Below, piece by piece: positions 1 to 7,557 of a DNA stretch of 10,324 nt (its first letter is position 1; the number at the start of each line of letters is the position of its first letter). A model generated the notes under the pieces. That model searched no databases. It was given only the letters and a program-made list of their open reading frames with translations, and was not told the origin of the DNA. Origin of the DNA: a virus; UHGV virus genome UHGV-1724002. The stretch is one strand, 5' to 3'. Position numbers and translations under genes: made by a program.

Positions 1-663
1 CTTGCCGTACCCCTGGTAGTTTTACGCCATTCCCTGAACTGTGTTCTGAATGCCGAAGCTGCGTTTTTCTTCCCGGCTTTCCGCATGCCTGCACACCAGA
101 ATATTTCCTCGAATGCCTTGTCGGTTTCTTCGTGACGGTCATGTGATTTTTCACACTCCGTCCGAACACTTTCGGACATAGTGTTTTTATTATTTCTTTT
201 TTCTTTGTAATAGTTTCTTTTGTGTGTCCCTGTTTTGGTGACAGCGCTGTCACCGTTTTGGTGACACTTTTTGTCACCAATGCAGTGACATTATCACCAG
301 AGTAGTGACACCCTTCTATTTGCCATTCCTCGATGTTCTTGTTAGGCCCGATTTGCTGGCCTTCGCGAAGGATAACCTTCATCGCGATAAGCTCATTCTT
401 GGCCTTGTTTACCTTCTGTCTTGGCAGCCTGGTAATTTGAGCTAACTGACTATCAGAGATGCGATCCATCTTTTTACCGTAGCCGTATGTTTTACGGCAT
501 ATGGCGTGGGCAACCTTGCTCTGATTTTCGTTAAATCTGCGCCGATAAGCTCTTCATACAGGGCATTTGCAAGACGGGTATAACCATCTTCAACTTCTGC
601 CACACGACGCTCCACAGGCCGTTGTGAAGGCCTTAAATGTGTTACGGTTGCAAGATTACTCAT
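1..663 (-). CDS. O: Replication initiator, lambda O family (5' partial at window edge; apparent -1 frameshifts near 525-528 and in the AT-rich stretch ~184-202)
   Basis: N-terminus from ATG 663 reads ...VAEVEDGYTRLANALYEELIGADLTK, matching lambda O (..VADLDDGYARLSNMLLEAYSGADLTK..). After the T4 run at 525-528 the -1 frame continues with lambda-O-like ..CRKTYGYGKKMDRISDSQLAQITRLP..GPNKNIEEW... SD gaaggagaaagg precedes the ATG. Iterons and AT-rich region lie inside the gene as in lambda. Confidence 0.65.
183..310. repeat. Putative replication origin: about four dyad-symmetric iterons built on GGTGACA/TGTCACC (233-310) beside an AT-rich stretch (183-229)
   Basis: Direct reading: GGTGACAgcgcTGTCACC (237-254), GGTGACActtttTGTCACC (259-277), GTGACAttaTCACC, GTGACAcc at roughly 20-bp spacing, then a T/A-rich tract. 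The layout mirrors lambda ori inside O. Confidence 0.55.
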
Positions 664-682
664 GACCTTTCTCCTTCTGTCA

Positions 683-802
683 TCAGCTCACTTTTTCCAA
701 CTCAGCCCGGAATCGACCAGGCTGCTTGAAGCTGGACAGGAAGCGATCACGTAGTATGTGTTTGTGAATTTTGTCCTGGTAAGGACTGAGTTGTTTTGTC
801 AT
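683..802 (-). CDS. Hypothetical 39-aa protein between cII-like and O-like genes
   Basis: ATG at 802-800 preceded by SD caggag at 5-nt spacing; translation [39 protein letters not shown]; stop at 685-683. No homology recognised. Confidence 0.3.
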
Positions 803-834
803 AATGACTCCTGTTGATAGATCCAGTAATGACC

Positions 835-1130
835 TCAGAATTGCATATCAATTTGCTTAAAATCCTCGGTGGCGGCCGGGGATTTTTCTTTGTGATTTCA
901 TCAAGCGCATACTTAAAAGCCCTGCTAATCGGACTGATGTCTGATGCCATTCCGAAAGCACACAAGACCGAAGCAATAAATCTCCAGTCCGTTCTGCTTA
1001 TCTTCGATTCATGACAGCCAATCATCTTTGCCAGACCGCGCTGGGTAAGCGTTGACAGGTTGATGAGTAAATCAGTTTCAGCGCGATCAATTTCTCGCTG
1101 TGTTGGCTTGCTATAACTTGCTTGTGTCAT
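835..1130 (-). CDS. cII: CII-like transcriptional activator (apparent -1 frameshift at T5 run 883-887; reconstructed length about 98 aa)
   Basis: Position right after cro/nutR. HTH region ..[32 protein letters not shown] resembles lambda CII ..ESALLNKIAMLGTEKTAEAVGVDKSQISRWKRDW. In the -1 frame after the run the C-terminus reads [15 protein letters not shown], against lambda ..RPAATERSEQIQMEF*. The track ORF 747..1130 is the unshifted read-through. Confidence 0.65.
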
Positions 1131-1214: not shown

Positions 1215-1260
1215 TCGCTTTGTCAGCGACGTAGGACGAATGTCCATTGTGAAAAGAGCG
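1215..1260 (-). promoter_or_regulatory. nutR-like site: boxA-like CGCTCTTTT (1260-1252) and boxB-like hairpin UCGCU-GACAA-AGCGA (1229-1215)
   Basis: Read on the minus strand immediately downstream of the cro stop. boxA resembles lambdoid CGCTCTT(T/A)A. boxB is a 5-bp stem with GACAA pentaloop, which I recall as the P22 type, not the lambda GAAAA/GAAGA type. Confidence 0.45.
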
Positions 1261-1267
1261 GTGTTAC

Positions 1268-1477
<210 letters not shown>

Positions 1478-1494
1478 TTAGTACATGCAACCAT

Positions 1495-1561
1495 TATCAC
1501 GCTAGAGGTAAAATAGTCAACACGCACGGTGTTAGATATTTATCCCTTGCGGTGATAGATT
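1495..1561. promoter_or_regulatory. Right operator region: OR1 (1495-1510, 16 bp, atypical), OR2 (1518-1534), OR3 (1541-1557), with PR (-10 rc 1494-1499, -35 rc 1515-1520, leftward) and PRM (-35 1533-1538, -10 1556-1561, rightward, leaderless cI)
   Basis: OR2 CAACACGCACGGTGTTA and OR3 TATCCCTTGCGGTGATA match lambda exactly. OR1 reads TATCACGCTAGAGGTA against lambda TATCACCGCCAGAGGTA. Confidence 0.9.
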
Positions 1562-1564
1562 TAA

Positions 1565-2281
<717 letters not shown>

Positions 2282-2367
2282 GTCCGCAGCAAGAGACTTT
2301 ATACGCATCTAGATGTAGGAAATAAAAAAGAAGATCCCTACAATAAAAATAAGGAAATCATTAAGAT

Positions 2368-3273
2368 ATGTCGATTAACAGCAATAGCGAATCCCTGCAT
2401 CAAATGCAGCTTTTCCCTGTAGTAGAGGTTGTTTCTGATGATATTCCTATGGGCGTTCTCAATGATGGAACTCCTTACCTAACTCTCTACGGTCTCGCAA
2501 AGTTATGCGGCATTGATGACACGCCACTGAGGGTGTTCACATCAAACTGGAACACAGAGAAAAACAAACCCAGAGGTCAAAAAGTAGCTGCGTATTTAGC
2601 TGAGAAAGGGTTTCATAACGTCGAAAAGCTATACACTCGCGTTTTAAATAGCTCAAACGTGGAAACTCATGCTTATCCTGACTATGTTTGCATGGCTATC
2701 CTCCGTTACTACGCTCTAGATGCCACCAATTTTGATAGGTCAGTCGCAATAGGTAATTTTGTTCGCTTGGCTGAGTACACGCTTAAGCGAATGATTTATG
2801 AAAAGTCAAATTACAACCCAAATGCTTCAATAGATATCTCATTCGAGAACTATAGAGCAAGGATTAAGCTAAACGATCAGATACCGACAACTCATTTTGC
2901 AGTATTCAGAGAGATAGCTGACATTGCCATGAACCTGATCGGAGGAGGATTCCCAATGGATGACACCACATCTTTGGATGGAAGTGTTGGAATTCACTGG
3001 GGAAAGTATTGGACAGCTAATGGGCTATCTGAGAAATTCGGGGAAAGGGTGCAGTACCCACATTTATTCCCCGAAAATTACAGGCAGTCAGCTGCAAATA
3101 AGCATATAACAGCTTGGATTTATCCTATTGAGGCACTTGGCGTGTTCAGAAAATGGCTACACGATAATTACGCAATGGAAAAACTGCCAAATTACCTTGG
3201 GAACAAAAAGATTAGTAACGCCTCCGAGCTATTAGAGTCGATAAAAAAACCAGCACTCCCAAATAAGCATTGA
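2368..3273 (+). CDS. Hypothetical 301-aa protein in the rexAB-equivalent slot; possible KilA-N-like N-terminal domain; candidate BstA-like abortive-infection/exclusion protein
   Basis: Single uninterrupted ORF between cI and the tIMM-like terminator, same strand as cI, AT-rich by eye, SD aagga upstream. N-terminal segments DGTPYLTLYGLAKLCGIDD and ..THAYPDYVCMAILRYY resemble the KilA-N/APSES pattern from memory. Not search-verified. Confidence 0.8.
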   Translation: MSINSNSESLHQMQLFPVVEVVSDDIPMGVLNDGTPYLTLYGLAKLCGIDDTPLRVFTSNWNTEKNKPRGQKVAAYLAEKGFHNVEKLYTRVLNSSNVETHAYPDYVCMAILRYYALDATNFDRSVAIGNFVRLAEYTLKRMIYEKSNYNPNASIDISFENYRARIKLNDQIPTTHFAVFREIADIAMNLIGGGFPMDDTTSLDGSVGIHWGKYWTANGLSEKFGERVQYPHLFPENYRQSAANKHITAWIYPIEALGVFRKWLHDNYAMEKLPNYLGNKKISNASELLESIKKPALPNKH

Positions 3274-3284
3274 TCTCCACCACA

Positions 3285-3310
3285 ACCCGGCATCTGCGCC
3301 GGGTTTTCTT
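3285..3310 (+). terminator. Intrinsic terminator (tIMM-like) ending the cI/cargo-gene operon
   Basis: Hairpin ACCCGGC-atctgc-GCCGGGT (3285-3304) followed by TTTTCTTT; flanking sequence resembles the lambda tIMM/OL-proximal region. Confidence 0.6.
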
Positions 3311-3461
3311 TGCCTAACGCCCCCAAAAAACGCATAACCAATTGTATTTATTTCAAAATTAATAGATACAACTCACTAAACATCGCAATTCAGATCTCTC
3401 GATCACCTTCCCAATCCACACAACCCTGCAAAAAATAAATCTATATAAAAAACATACAGAT

Positions 3462-3531
3462 AACCATCTGCGGTGATAAATTATCTCTGGCGGTGTTGAC
3501 ATAAATACCACTGGCGGTGATACTAAGCACA
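3462..3531 (+). promoter_or_regulatory. Left operator region OL3 (3462-3478), OL2 (3482-3498), OL1 (3506-3522) and PL promoter (-35 TTGACA 3496-3501, -10 GATACT 3519-3524, start near 3531)
   Basis: Near-identical to lambda OL/PL: TATCTCTGGCGGTGTTGACATAAATACCACTGGCGGTGATACT. Confidence 0.92.
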
Positions 3532-3563
3532 TCAGCAGGACGCACTGACCACCATGAAGGTGA

Positions 3564-3594
3564 CGCTCTTAAAAATTAAGCCCTGAAGAAGGGT
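3564..3594 (+). promoter_or_regulatory. nutL: boxA CGCTCTTAA (3564-3572) and boxB GCCCUGAAGAAGGGU (3580-3594)
   Basis: Matches lambda nutL except the last boxB stem base is T where lambda has C, giving a G-U closing pair. Confidence 0.85.
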
Positions 3595-3752
3595 AGCATT
3601 CAAAGCAGAAGGCTTTGGTGTGTGTGATACGAAACGAAGCATTGGCCGGAAGTGCGAATCCGGATTAGCTGCCAATGTGCCAATCGCGGGGTGTTTTCGT
3701 TCAGGACTACGACTCCCACACACAACCAAAGCTAACTGACAGGAGAATCCAG

Positions 3753-4079
3753 ATGGATGCACAAACACGCCGCCGCGAACGTCGCGCAGAGAAACAGGCT
3801 CAATGGAAAGCAGCAAATCCCCTGTTGGTTGGGGTAAGCGCAAAACCAGTTAACCGCCCTATTCTCTCGCTGAATCGCAAACCGAAATCACGAGTAGAAA
3901 GCGCACTGAATCCGATAGACCTTACAGTGCTGGCTGAATACCACGAACAGATTGAAAGCAACCTGCAACGTATTGAGCGCAAGAATCAGCGCACATGGTA
4001 CAGCAAGCCACGTAGTGAAATGGGGTTGACTTGTGTTGGTCGCCAGAAAATGAAATTAGGCTGCAAACCACTTATTTGA
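3753..4079 (+). CDS. N: Antitermination protein N
   Basis: MDAQTRRRERRAEKQAQWKAANPLLVGVSAKPVNRPILSLNRKP.. matches lambda N including the arginine-rich motif; SD aggaga before ATG 3753. The track ORF from 3675 is an upstream in-frame extension through nutL. Confidence 0.95.
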   Translation: MDAQTRRRERRAEKQAQWKAANPLLVGVSAKPVNRPILSLNRKPKSRVESALNPIDLTVLAEYHEQIESNLQRIERKNQRTWYSKPRSEMGLTCVGRQKMKLGCKPLI

Positions 4080-4996: not shown

Positions 4997-5964
4997 ATGA
5001 GTGAAGTAACAGACTTAGTTGTTATTGAAAAAGCAAATGCAATGACTGTATTTCAGTCTGCAGACCAGATTGAAGAAATTCTCCAAAAGGTTGAACGTGA
5101 AGTTATGTCCTTTGTGCCTGATATCACAACGGCAAAGGGCAGAAAGGAGATCGCTTCTCTGGCGTATAAGTTGCGCAGACGAAAACATATCTCGATGGTC
5201 TTGGCAAAGACCTTGTTGCTGAACTGAAGGAAATTCCAAAGCTAATTGATGCCAACCGCAAGACAGTGCGCGATCGCCTTGATGAACTGAAAGCCAAGGC
5301 TCGCCAGCCTCTTACTGATTATGAGGAGGAACAGGCACGGATTAAAGCCGAAGAAGAAGCTAAGGCAGCAGCTGAAGCTCTCGCAAAGCAAATTGAGTCT
5401 GACCATGAAATAGCGATTTTGATGGATCGCGAATTTGACCGCCAAAGAGAAGAGGCAAGACTCAAAGCGGAGCAGGAAAAGCGAGAGCATGAAGAACGCT
5501 TAAAAAGAGAAGCTGAAGAGAAAGCCAGAGCAGAAGCCGAAGCAAAGGCAAAAGCCGAAATTGAAGCAGCAGCAAGGCGAGAAGCAGAAGCTAAGGCCGC
5601 AGCGGAGCGTGCAGAGCGTGAGCGCATTGAAGCCGAGCAACGAGCACAGCGCGAAGCAAAAGAGGAAGCAGAACGAGCTGAAAGAGAAAAGCAGGCAGCA
5701 ATTGAAGCAGAACGCAGAAAAGCACAGGAGGAGGCTGAACGAATCCGTCGCGAGGCTGAAGCAAAAGAGCAAGCCAGAATAGCAGAAGAAAAAAGAATCA
5801 AGGACGAAGAAGAGCGTAGAGCAAAGGATAAAGCTCACCGGAAAGAAGTAAATAACAAAATACTTGCTGACCTTATCAAGGTTGGCGCATCAGAAGATGT
5901 TGCTAAAAATATCATAACAGCCATCGTAAAAGGCGAAGTATTCGCAACAAAAATAACCTACTAA
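4997..5964 (+). CDS. Highly charged coiled-coil protein (E/A/R/K-rich) with short N- and C-terminal domains; apparent -1 frameshift near the A4 run 5182-5185
   Basis: SD ggagga before ATG 4997. N-terminal frame ..KEIASLAYKLRRRK stops at 5227 while the -1 frame is open from 5170 and continues ..TYLDGLGKDLVAELKEIPKL.. into a long EAEAKAKAE-type repeat region, ending ..NNKILADLIKVGASEDVAKNIITAIVKGEVFATKITY. Confidence 0.6.
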
Positions 5965-6361: not shown

Positions 6362-6650
6362 TAAGCGTGAAATATCGCAAATAATCGCAAGTTTTACTGA
6401 TGAAGATTACGAGCGAATCAACAGTGAAGTTGATCGCCTCTGCAAACGTTGCGACCCAATAAGCGAAATGCTTCGCTCATATAAACCAGATGAACACACT
6501 AAGGACGCTATCGACTGGCTGGAAGATGATGACTGTAACTATCAGGAAAAAGCCGCTGAATGGTTCTGGGATGCAATAACCGAAAGAGTTAAGGCTGAAT
6601 ATGCCTTCGCAATATTCAAACGCAGACACATTTTTGGAGAAGCAGCATGA
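6339..6650 (+). CDS. Hypothetical 103-aa protein immediately upstream of recT (occupies the lambda gam position)
   Basis: SD aggag before the tandem ATGs at 6339/6342; its stop overlaps the recT start (ATGA). No homology to lambda Gam recognised. Confidence 0.6.
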   Translation: MMILTLNDKREISQIIASFTDEDYERINSEVDRLCKRCDPISEMLRSYKPDEHTKDAIDWLEDDDCNYQEKAAEWFWDAITERVKAEYAFAIFKRRHIFGEAA

Positions 6651-7557
6651 GCAATATCGTTGAATTCGTTAAACAGCAGGAGCAGTTATTCTGCGGAGCA
6701 TTGACTGAACAGACGGTGACATGGGCTAAGGAAAGCCAGTTTGCAATTCAGTATTTCCAGAAAAATGATTACCTGGCTAAAACAGCACTGGCAAATCCAA
6801 CCAGCGCACAGAACGCCATCATCAATGTTGCGGCGATCGGTATCACCTTAAACCCGGCTAGCAAACTGGCTTATCTGGTTCCGCGCGACGGCATGGTTTG
6901 CCTTGATATCAGCTATATGGGATTGCTACATATTGCAATGGAGTCTGGTGTTATCTCATGGGGTCAGGCAAAGCTTGTTCATGCTAACGATACTTATGAG
7001 TCAAACGGACTTGATAAAGCACCAACCATAAATACAACGCCTTCGGTGATCGTGGCGATATCGTTGGTGTTTACTGCACAGTTAAGACGCCAGCAGGTGA
7101 TTATCTAACGGAAGAGATGAGTCTGGCTGAAATTGAGGCTGTAAGGAAAACAAGCAAGGCGGCATTCAGCGATAAAGGACCATGGGTAAATCACTGGAAT
7201 GAGATGGCGCGAAAGACGGTCGTAAAGCGTGCAAGCAAGTATTGGCCTAAGGCATCACGTCTTGATAGTGCTATTCACGTACTAAACGAAGAAGAAGGTG
7301 TATGGACTGAACCAGTTATGCCGCACAAATCAGAGGAAGATATCCGCGAAGATGAACGGAAACGCCAGCAGGAAATAACGGATAAAGCACAACTTCTTTG
7401 TGATGAAATGGCTCAGGCTGAAAACATGGATGATTTGAAGAGATATTTTGCAGAAGCATATCGCCTGACATCTGGAATGAAATTGCAGCAAAACGTACAA
7501 GCCATTTACGCAGAATGCAAAGCGAAACTGGAGGTTGCCAGTGAGCAAACTGTATGA
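6647..7557 (+). CDS. recT: RecT-family single-strand annealing recombinase (apparent -1 frameshift near 7016-7030)
   Basis: Downstream half contains ..GPWVNHWNEMARKTVVKRASKYWP.., matching the RecT motif GPWVTHWEEMAKKTAIRRLFKYLP. The upstream ORF frame stops at 7108; the -1 frame is open from 7018 and reads ..HKYNAFGDRGDIVGVYCTVKTPAGDYLTEEMSLAEIEAVRK.., joining the two track ORFs 6647..7108 and 7117..7557. Confidence 0.8.

What the first reader, a model, noticed from the sequence alone, without database searches (positions are those of the whole stretch)
2282..3310. rexAB slot holds a single AT-rich 301-aa gene with a KilA-N-like N-terminus: candidate BstA-like exclusion system
Lambda homology is near-perfect through cI and resumes at the tIMM/OL region, but the roughly 1 kb between them, where lambda carries rexA-rexB, holds one unrelated AT-rich ORF. 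It is co-oriented with cI, 86 bp downstream, with no terminator between, so it is probably co-transcribed from PRM in the lysogen, the expression pattern of prophage exclusion genes. Its N-terminal region resembles the KilA-N/APSES pattern. Salmonella BTP1 BstA is, as I recall, about 300 aa, KilA-N-fronted and immediately downstream of the prophage repressor. If it is BstA-like, a cis-acting self-immunity DNA element (aba) may lie inside or beside the gene.
Basis: partly seen in the sequence, partly recalled or inferred. Interest (0 to 1): 0.85.

Follow-up and report, generated by a model that had tools for sequence, protein, structure and literature searches.

The report
Known BstA phage-defence gene replacing rexAB
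The gene that replaces rexAB downstream of the lambda-type repressor is the already characterised prophage defence gene bstA (identical to the tested E. coli version), and comparing about 80 related loci pinpoints where its still-unmapped DNA self-immunity element most likely lies.

Summary
Window 2282-3283 replaces lambda rexAB. It holds one ORF (2368-3273, 301 aa), 86 bp after cI, with no terminator between them. The ORF matches the BstA profiles over its full length (PADLOC 1.3e-105, PHROG 6e-133). Its protein is identical to BstA-Ec of E. coli NCTC10963. Window 2282-3333 is base-for-base the fragment that Owen et al. 2021 (PMC8585504) showed to confer phage defence and cognate aba self-immunity. 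The same ORF was deposited in 2007 in wild lambda-immunity phage CL707.

What is added here concerns aba. In 78 non-redundant bstA loci, short direct repeats spaced 56-57 bp and straddling the start codon occur in 43 loci, against about 5 expected. They sit in the same register as the mutationally validated CCCGCC repeats of BTP1 aba. The window's copies are GATCCCTACAATAAA (2333-2347) and AATCCCTGCATCAAA (2390-2404), which predicts aba-Ec at 2333-2404. [quoted passage not shown] KilA-N likeness is only weakly supported.

The parts
1568..2281 (+). cI repressor, lambda immunity type. It is the upstream gene of the operon and is transcribed from PRM/PRE.
   Evidence: 237-aa ORF. 97.9% DNA identity to lambda 38255-37227. 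Annotated as cI in the identical CL707 record.
2282..2367 (+). 86-bp cI-bstA spacer. It is AT-rich (GC 0.326), contains the bstA ribosome-binding site (AAGGA, 2351-2355), and has no terminator or promoter-like site.
   Evidence: Sequence, scan, GC. It is the start of the segment with no lambda homology.
2368..3273 (+). bstA, encoding the abortive-infection / phage DNA-replication inhibitor BstA. The protein is identical to BstA-Ec of E. coli NCTC10963 and to CL70704 of phage CL707.
   Evidence: PADLOC BstA 1.3e-105. PHROG 6287 6e-133. Exact protein found on the NCTC10963 contig. DNA identity. Precomputed Pfam hit PF26567 BstA_C on the identical protein.
2407..2817 (+). Coding region for the N-terminal DNA-binding-type domain (about residues 14-150; beta-hairpins plus helices). 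Its first ~100 codons are the part that differs between the two E. coli alleles.
2818..3270 (+). Coding region for the C-terminal BstA_C domain (about residues 151-301). Its biochemical activity is unknown. It is ~100% identical between the two E. coli alleles.
2333..2404 (+). Predicted aba-Ec, the anti-BstA DNA self-immunity element. It consists of two direct repeat units 57 bp apart that straddle the bstA start codon, separated by an AT-rich spacer that holds the RBS and ATG.
   Evidence: It has the same register relative to the invariant MGVL codon (copy 1 at -115/-116, copy 2 at -58/-59) as the CCCGCC repeats of BTP1 aba, which are essential by point mutation. The signature is family-wide. 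It lies inside the fragment shown experimentally to carry aba-Ec.
2333..2347 (+). aba repeat unit, copy 1 (GATCCCTACAATAAA). It lies 21-35 nt upstream of the ATG.
2390..2404 (+). aba repeat unit, copy 2 (AATCCCTGCATCAAA). It lies in codons 8-13, which encode the disordered, non-conserved N-terminal tail.
   Evidence: pLDDT is below 50 for residues 1-13.
3284..3312 (+). tIMM intrinsic terminator that ends the cI-bstA transcript. Lambda homology resumes here.
   Evidence: Hairpin AACCCGGC-ATCTGC-GCCGGGTT followed by a T-run. Annotated as Timm in CL707. Lambda alignment.

Best explanation
Window 2282-3283 is a bstA-aba cassette occupying the moron slot between cI and tIMM, where lambda carries rexAB.

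Shown in the sequence: bstA follows cI on the same strand with no terminator or promoter-like site between them.

Inferred: it is therefore made constitutively in the lysogen from PRM.

Published for the identical protein: BstA-Ec blocks a range of incoming phages.

Published for BstA-BTP1: the protein gathers at replicating phage DNA, stops phage DNA replication, and the infected cell dies without releasing progeny (abortive infection).

Published at the resolution of the 1052-bp fragment: when the prophage itself replicates, it escapes because its own DNA carries the cognate aba element.

My inference: aba-Ec is the pair of direct repeats at 2333-2347 and 2390-2404, 57 bp apart across the start codon. 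These repeats would be binding sites for the N-terminal winged-helix-type domain of BstA. Many copies on replicating DNA would titrate or switch off the protein. Allele specificity would be set jointly by the variable bases of the repeat unit and by the first ~100 residues.
For: Identity of the gene:
- PADLOC and PHROG BstA profiles match over the full length.
- The exact protein and identical DNA are found in NCTC10963.
- Owen et al.'s primers and fragment coordinates map to window 2282-3333.

Operon layout.

aba prediction:
- BTP1 aba is 63 bp, running from -29 to +34 of the ATG, with terminal CCCGCC repeats. A single-base change in either repeat abolishes function.
- In 78 non-redundant bstA loci, exact direct repeats of >=6 nt at spacing 56/57 occur in 43. 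Block shuffles give 5.1+-1.9 and other spacings give 5.7+-2.7.
- For repeats of >=8 nt the count is 22 against 0.4. Control regions inside the gene or further upstream give 5-6 and 0.
- Copy 1 lies upstream of the start codon and copy 2 within the first codons, in one register across the family.
- Unit sequences differ between lineages, with both copies changing together: CCCGCCA, GATCGCCA, GGTCACCAC, AAGGAAATC, TAGGCCCA, GGCGGCACCCCT.
- The three experimentally distinct systems have three different units in the same place: BTP1, Ec, and a close relative of the Kp locus.

Link to the N-terminal domain:
- The second E. coli allele is 52-85% identical over CDS nt 1-300, unrelated upstream, and ~100% identical from nt 301 onward.
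- Unit similarity tracks N-domain identity (partial r 0.45) more than C-domain identity (0.15).
- The N-domain model resembles DNA-binding domains.
Against: - No experiment has mapped aba-Ec below the 1052-bp fragment.
- The window's own repeat is short: 6 nt exact, 9/10, or 11/15. Taken alone it would not be significant (2 matches against 1.85 expected in the whole window).
- 35 of 78 loci lack an exact >=6-nt repeat at this spacing. Some have imperfect repeats, such as the CP53 allele at 8/10.
- Owen et al. saw no loss of BstA foci with high-copy aba, so direct titration is not established.
- Binding of the N-domain to the repeats is an inference.
- The covariation statistics use non-independent pairs.
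- Co-transcription from PRM is inferred from layout only.
Confidence: 0.9

Rival explanations
1. The conserved start-straddling repeats are primarily an autoregulatory operator, or a translational control site, through which BstA represses its own expression. Self-immunity would be a side effect or would be encoded elsewhere in the fragment.
For: The repeats bracket the RBS and start codon in nearly all loci. The spacer is AT-rich, like a promoter or operator region (GC 0.35 against 0.49). Many loci are not downstream of a repressor and need their own control.
Against: In BTP1 the same repeats, in the same register, are necessary for aba function, both in trans and on the phage. A promoterless, terminator-flanked copy works. 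Autoregulation and immunity are not mutually exclusive.
Confidence: 0.25
2. In this particular window the cassette is a domesticated remnant. The prophage is decaying, so BstA still protects the host but aba no longer has a role, because the prophage cannot replicate.
For: Single-base indels relative to near-identical prophages disrupt O (windows 206, 524) and cII (880), and recT is split over two frames. bstA is intact.
Against: The indels could be assembly errors. The bstA-aba region is base-identical to that of NCTC10963 and to several other prophages, so there is no sign of relaxed selection on aba.
Confidence: 0.3
3. The ORF is a KilA-N/Bro-N/Ant-type regulator, such as an antirepressor or transcription factor, rather than a defence protein.
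Against: The identical protein was shown to confer phage resistance. Pfam KilA-N does not match at E<=10. Full-length matches are to BstA profiles only.
Confidence: 0.03

Closest known systems
BstA-Ec / aba-Ec of E. coli NCTC10963 (Owen et al. 2021, PMC8585504)
   Same: The protein is identical. The DNA is identical over window 2282-3340. The position after a lambda-type cI and before tIMM is the same, and the tested fragment equals window 2282-3333.
   Different: The cassette itself does not differ. The surrounding prophage does: there are 6 substitutions in cI, and the genes beyond N are different.
BstA-BTP1 / aba-BTP1 of Salmonella phage BTP1
   Same: 42.5% identity over 99% of the length. 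It lies downstream of the repressor. Its direct repeats are in the same register and straddle the ATG.
   Different: The repeat unit is CCCGCC(A) at 56 bp spacing, against (G/A)ATCCCT(A/G)CA at 57 bp here. The aba elements are not cross-active between homologs.
ORF CL70704 of wild lambda-immunity phage CL707 (EF120459; Degnan et al. 2007)
   Same: 100% DNA identity over 2282-3310, with the same immunity-region layout.
   Different: It was deposited as a 'hypothetical protein', and its function was not known at that time.
Lambda RexAB
   Same: It occupies the same slot between cI and tIMM, shares the PRM-driven lysogenic expression logic, and is also an abortive-infection type of exclusion.
   Different: There is no sequence similarity. 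RexAB is two proteins (a sensor plus a membrane channel) against one DNA-associated protein here, and no DNA-based self-immunity element is known for it.
Second E. coli bstA allele (e.g. strains CP53, ZH063; 23 of 5426 complete genomes)
   Same: The slot is the same, the C-terminal ~200 residues are about 100% identical, and the repeat register is the same.
   Different: The upstream region is different, the repeat units are GATCTCAG / GATCGCAG, and the first ~100 residues are diverged. It is predicted to be a separate immunity specificity.

Membership tests
BstA (prophage abortive-infection protein family) | Full-length sequence homology to BstA | tested here: met
   PADLOC BstA 1.3e-105 over residues 8-286 of profile positions 4-281/292. 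PHROG 6287 6e-133. 42.5% identity to BstA-BTP1. Identical to BstA-Ec.
BstA (prophage abortive-infection protein family) | Two-domain build: an N-terminal KilA-N(-like) DNA-binding domain plus the BstA C-terminal domain | tested here: met
   PF26567 BstA_C is recorded on the identical protein. The model has two domains with a boundary near residue 150. The N-domain resembles DNA-binding winged-helix type folds. Whether it is specifically KilA-N remains weak; see the KilA-N row.
BstA (prophage abortive-infection protein family) | Typical position directly downstream of, and co-oriented with, the prophage repressor | tested here: met
   It lies 86 bp after cI on the same strand, with no terminator between them. 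The layout is the same in BTP1 and in 10 other E. coli prophages.
BstA (prophage abortive-infection protein family) | Cognate aba DNA element at the 5' end of the locus, with terminal direct repeats | tested here: met
   The sequence signature is present at 2333-2347 and 2390-2404, in the BTP1 register. The signature is family-wide. Function is known only for the whole 2282-3333 fragment.
BstA (prophage abortive-infection protein family) | Phage resistance by abortive infection and block of phage DNA replication | not testable with these tools
   Resistance is published for the identical protein. Abi and replication block are published for BstA-BTP1.
KilA-N domain (Pfam PF04383) / APSES | Match to the KilA-N profile or a clear KilA-N/APSES fold | tested here: inconclusive
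RexAB exclusion system | Homology to rexA and rexB | tested here: not met
   There is no blastn alignment to lambda 35827-37226. PADLOC returns only BstA and a marginal HTH hit at E 0.0015. Only the slot is shared.

The most novel reading that the evidence does not exclude
aba is not a peculiarity of BTP1. It would be a family-wide bipartite DNA site: two ~10-15-bp direct repeats 56-57 bp apart across the bstA start codon, separated by an AT-rich spacer.

The repeats would be read by the N-terminal winged-helix-type domain of BstA. Immunity specificity would be set by co-varying bases of the repeat unit and the first ~100 residues. New immunity types would arise by swapping this 5' module while keeping the effector domain.

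This window would then carry aba-Ec at 2333-2404. I found no description of this in the papers I could search.
Probability: 0.55. Interest if true: 0.55.

Novelty: already known. Interest (0 to 1): 0.3.

Why it matters
The gene adds nothing new to the catalogue. It is the published BstA-Ec, in the slot that the original paper already compared with rexAB.

The useful output is a sharper, testable picture of the one part of the system that remains unexplained, namely how a short DNA element switches off its cognate defence protein. The 56/57-bp repeat rule does three things:
- It gives a 72-bp candidate for aba-Ec.
- It offers a way to predict aba elements in any bstA locus.
- It identifies a natural pair of E. 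coli alleles, with the same effector domain but different 5' modules, that can be used to map the specificity determinants.

Tried and rejected
- Pfam and NCBIfam scans of the protein returned nothing. The local Pfam copy appears to lack PF26567 BstA_C, which is precomputed on the homologs and on the identical protein. The empty result is therefore not evidence against BstA.
- Sequence searches of the PDB, with the protein and with a 101-sequence profile, found no solved relative.
- The afdb50 fold library was not available.
- A generic repeat search in the window did not list the aba repeats, because longer chance pairs outranked them.
- Folding 2325-2415 as single-stranded DNA showed no unusual structure (z -0.87), so I did not pursue a hairpin-based aba.
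- The motif RATCCCTRCA occurs nowhere else in the window, but two matches is what chance allows. The case for aba therefore rests on comparative data, not on the window alone.
- Literature searches for later mechanistic work on BstA or aba found none.
- A search for the nature of PDB 4ye7 (baculovirus Orf22 N-domain) was uninformative.
- I rejected the reading that the ORF is a KilA-N antirepressor, because the identical protein has a published defence phenotype.

Full report
**1. What is in the sequence**

The window is an immunity region of the lambda type, oriented so that cI reads on the + strand. Its features are:
- cro at 1268-1468 (-) and cI at 1568-2281 (+).
- A 301-aa ORF at 2368-3273 (+).
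- A terminator hairpin at 3284-3305.
- PL/OL at about 3460-3524.
- N at 3753-4079.

Against lambda, window 1254-2281 aligns at 97.9% and stops exactly at the cI stop codon. Homology resumes at window 3284 (lambda 35826) at 92.9%. The 1002 bp in between replace the 1400 bp of lambda that hold rexA and rexB.

The ORF starts 86 bp after cI. The consensus scan finds no terminator-like site and no + strand promoter-like site in the gap.

The ORF's GC content (0.419) is only slightly below that of the window (0.446), and is like lambda rexA/rexB.

**2. What it is**

The protein matches the PADLOC BstA model at 1.3e-105 over essentially its whole length. It matches PHROG 6287, 'BstA abortive infection system, replication inhibitor', at 6e-133. 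It is 42.5% identical to BstA of Salmonella phage BTP1 over 99% of its length.

Pfam and NCBIfam returned nothing. The homologs and the identical protein carry a precomputed PF26567 (BstA_C) hit, so the local Pfam copy appears to lack that newer model.

**3. It is the published protein**

An exact-sequence look-up finds this protein on contig CAADJH010000002.1 of E. coli NCTC10963 (L092). That is the strain from which Owen et al. 2021 took BstA-Ec.

Window 2282-3340 is identical in DNA to that locus. The only 6 differences between 1568 and 3340 lie in cI.

The 3' parts of their primers NW_761 and NW_762/763 match window 2282-2305 and the reverse complement of 3312-3333. The fragment they inserted into P22 (NCTC10963 1520919-1521970) maps to window 2282-3333.

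For that protein and fragment they showed two things:
- Resistance to Salmonella phages, and somewhat weaker resistance to coliphages.
- Immunity of P22 carrying the fragment, specifically to BstA-Ec.

Their discussion already points out that lambda has rexAB at the corresponding site and cites the wild-phage survey of Degnan et al. 2007. The same 1029 bp are 100% identical to phage CL707 from that survey, where the ORF is a 'hypothetical protein'.

The cassette occurs in 33 of 5426 complete E. coli genomes. The exact protein is seen on several hundred contigs. It also occurs behind a non-lambda repressor (L090).

**4. Where is aba?**

In BTP1, aba is 63 bp running from -29 to +34 of the bstA ATG. 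It has terminal CCCGCC direct repeats, and a single-base change in either repeat abolishes function. It acts as DNA and only at high copy number. For BstA-Ec the element was not mapped below the whole fragment.

In the window, GATCCCTACA (2333-2342) and AATCCCTGCA (2390-2399) are direct repeats 57 bp apart, on either side of the ATG at 2368. The similarity extends to 11 of 15 bases, GATCCCTACAATAAA against AATCCCTGCATCAAA.

Measured from the codon of the invariant Met of the MGVLNDGTPYL motif (window 2449), copy 1 starts at -115/-116 and copy 2 at -58/-59 in both the window and BTP1.

On its own the window's repeat is weak evidence. The 10-mer pattern with one mismatch allowed is expected 1.85 times in the window and is found twice.

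**5. Comparative test**

I fetched 80 bstA loci from one-genome-per-species contigs, ranging from Enterobacterales to Alphaproteobacteria, Verrucomicrobiota, Planctomycetota and others. I anchored each on the MGV codon.

The test covered the 200 nt upstream of the anchor in 78 non-redundant loci. Exact direct repeats of at least 6 nt occur at spacing 56 in 31 loci and at spacing 57 in 12, against about 3 per other spacing.

| Minimum repeat length | Loci with repeat at 56/57 (of 78) | Composition-preserving shuffles | Other spacings |
|---|---|---|---|
| >=6 nt | 43 | 5.1+-1.9 | 5.7+-2.7 |
| >=8 nt | 22 | 0.4+-0.6 | 0.5+-0.8 |

Control regions inside the gene or 400 nt further upstream give 5-6 loci at >=6 nt and 0 at >=8 nt.

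Further features of the signature:
- The first copy lies upstream of the start codon and the second in the first codons.
- The spacer is AT-rich in 46 of 50 loci, GC 0.35 against 0.49 for the gene.
- The units are related, with a common core near GGTCACCAC / GAGCACC / GATCNCC.
- Units differ between lineages, with both copies changing together: CCCGCCA, GATCGCCA, AAGGAAATC, TAGGCCCA, GGCGGCACCCCT, CGCGATCACCCC.
- A Klebsiella phage locus whose upstream region matches the BstA-Kp primer at 23 of 24 bases has GGTCATCACC / GGTCACCAGC 57 bp apart around its ATG.

The three systems shown to be non-cross-immune thus carry three different units at the same place. I conclude that the terminal repeats of BTP1 aba are one instance of a family-wide feature, and that aba-Ec is most likely window 2333-2404.

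Copy 2 falls in codons 8-13. These encode a tail that is not conserved and is predicted to be disordered, with pLDDT below 50 for residues 1-13. That explains how a DNA signal can sit inside the coding sequence.

**6. What reads aba?**

A second E. coli allele, found in 23 complete genomes, aligns only from window 2421 onward. Compared with the window allele:
- Its upstream region is unrelated.
- Its repeats at the aligned positions are GATCTCAG / GATCGCAG.
- CDS nt 1-300 are 52-85% identical.
- From nt 301 to beyond the stop codon it is ~100% identical.

The 5' module, meaning aba plus the first 100 codons, has therefore been exchanged as a unit on a constant effector domain.

Across 50 loci, similarity of the repeat units follows identity of residues 20-100 (partial rank correlation 0.45) more than identity of residues 151-290 (0.15). 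This statistic uses non-independent pairs and is only supportive.

Foldseek against viral models gives weak matches to Bro-N, KilA-N and Ant-N proteins. The domain is thus plausibly DNA-binding, but the specific KilA-N label is only weakly supported here. It rests mainly on the remote-homology result reported by Owen et al..

**7. Mechanism, with status of each step**

Shown in the sequence:
- The cassette layout, the intact gene and the repeat signature.

Published for the identical protein or fragment:
- Phage resistance and cognate immunity.

Published for BstA-BTP1 only:
- Constitutive expression in the lysogen.
- Foci at phage DNA.
- Block of phage DNA replication.
- Abortive infection.
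- The DNA nature and copy-number dependence of aba.

Inferred here:
- Transcription from PRM.
- aba-Ec at 2333-2404.
- Recognition of the repeats by the N-terminal domain.
- Specificity encoded by repeat unit plus N-domain.

Unknown:
- What the C-terminal domain does. No solved relative was found by sequence, and no fold match was attributable to it.
- How aba binding would inactivate the protein. Owen et al. saw BstA foci persist with high-copy aba.

**8. Verdict**

As a discovery it scores low.

The comparative result on aba is, as far as the searchable literature shows, not described. It gives direct experiments on an open question, which is why the interest score is not lower.

Noticed in passing
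window 1-1130 and 6647-7557: Several phage genes look frameshifted by single-base indels relative to near-identical prophages. O (442-663, -) keeps only the first 31 profile positions, with 1-nt gaps at 206 and 524. cII (747-1130, -) has a 40-aa out-of-frame tail, with a gap at 880. recT is split into 6647-7108 and 7117-7557 in different frames. This is either an error-prone assembly or a decaying prophage; bstA is intact.
   Followed up: partly
window 2395-2409: A small hairpin, CTGCAT-CAA-ATGCAG followed by CTTTTCC, overlaps repeat copy 2 inside the first codons of bstA. It is listed by the terminator scan, but the number of such sites is within chance (4 found against 2.3+-1.5), and the region folds no better than shuffles.
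   Followed up: partly
window 2333-2336; L003/L004, L007, L017 repeat units: Many enterobacterial aba-type units contain GATC, the Dam methylation site. In the window this is copy 1 only; in CP53, Yersinia L007 and Serratia L017 it is both copies. Whether methylation state (hemimethylated replicating DNA against the resident chromosome) affects recognition is untested. Units in most Alphaproteobacteria lack GATC.
   Followed up: no
L090 (E. coli PK12, CP074031) 2219-3906: The same bstA-aba cassette (1 mismatch in the 86-bp spacer) sits behind a repressor that is called at 231 aa. It is paired with a different cro-like gene, although the last ~180 bp of that repressor are nearly identical to lambda cI. 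The cassette, with the repressor's 3' end, moves between immunity regions.
   Followed up: partly
L003 (E. coli CP53) 827-1807: An IS5 element is inserted in the cro gene of a prophage carrying the second bstA allele. This is another case of a disabled prophage that retains an intact bstA.
   Followed up: no
alphaproteobacterial loci, e.g. L065, L070, L073, L084, just 3' of repeat copy 1: A short inverted repeat, TCAAC-N5-6-(G)TTGA, follows copy 1 in many alphaproteobacterial bstA loci, and a TGAAAA block is conserved mid-spacer. This may be a promoter or operator, or a further part of aba.
   Followed up: no
window 5266-5964: A 232-aa ORF that is very rich in E, A, K and R (a charged, probably coiled-coil protein; RefSeq neighbours call similar genes 'TolA'-like) lies among the early-left genes. 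It has no Pfam match.
   Followed up: no
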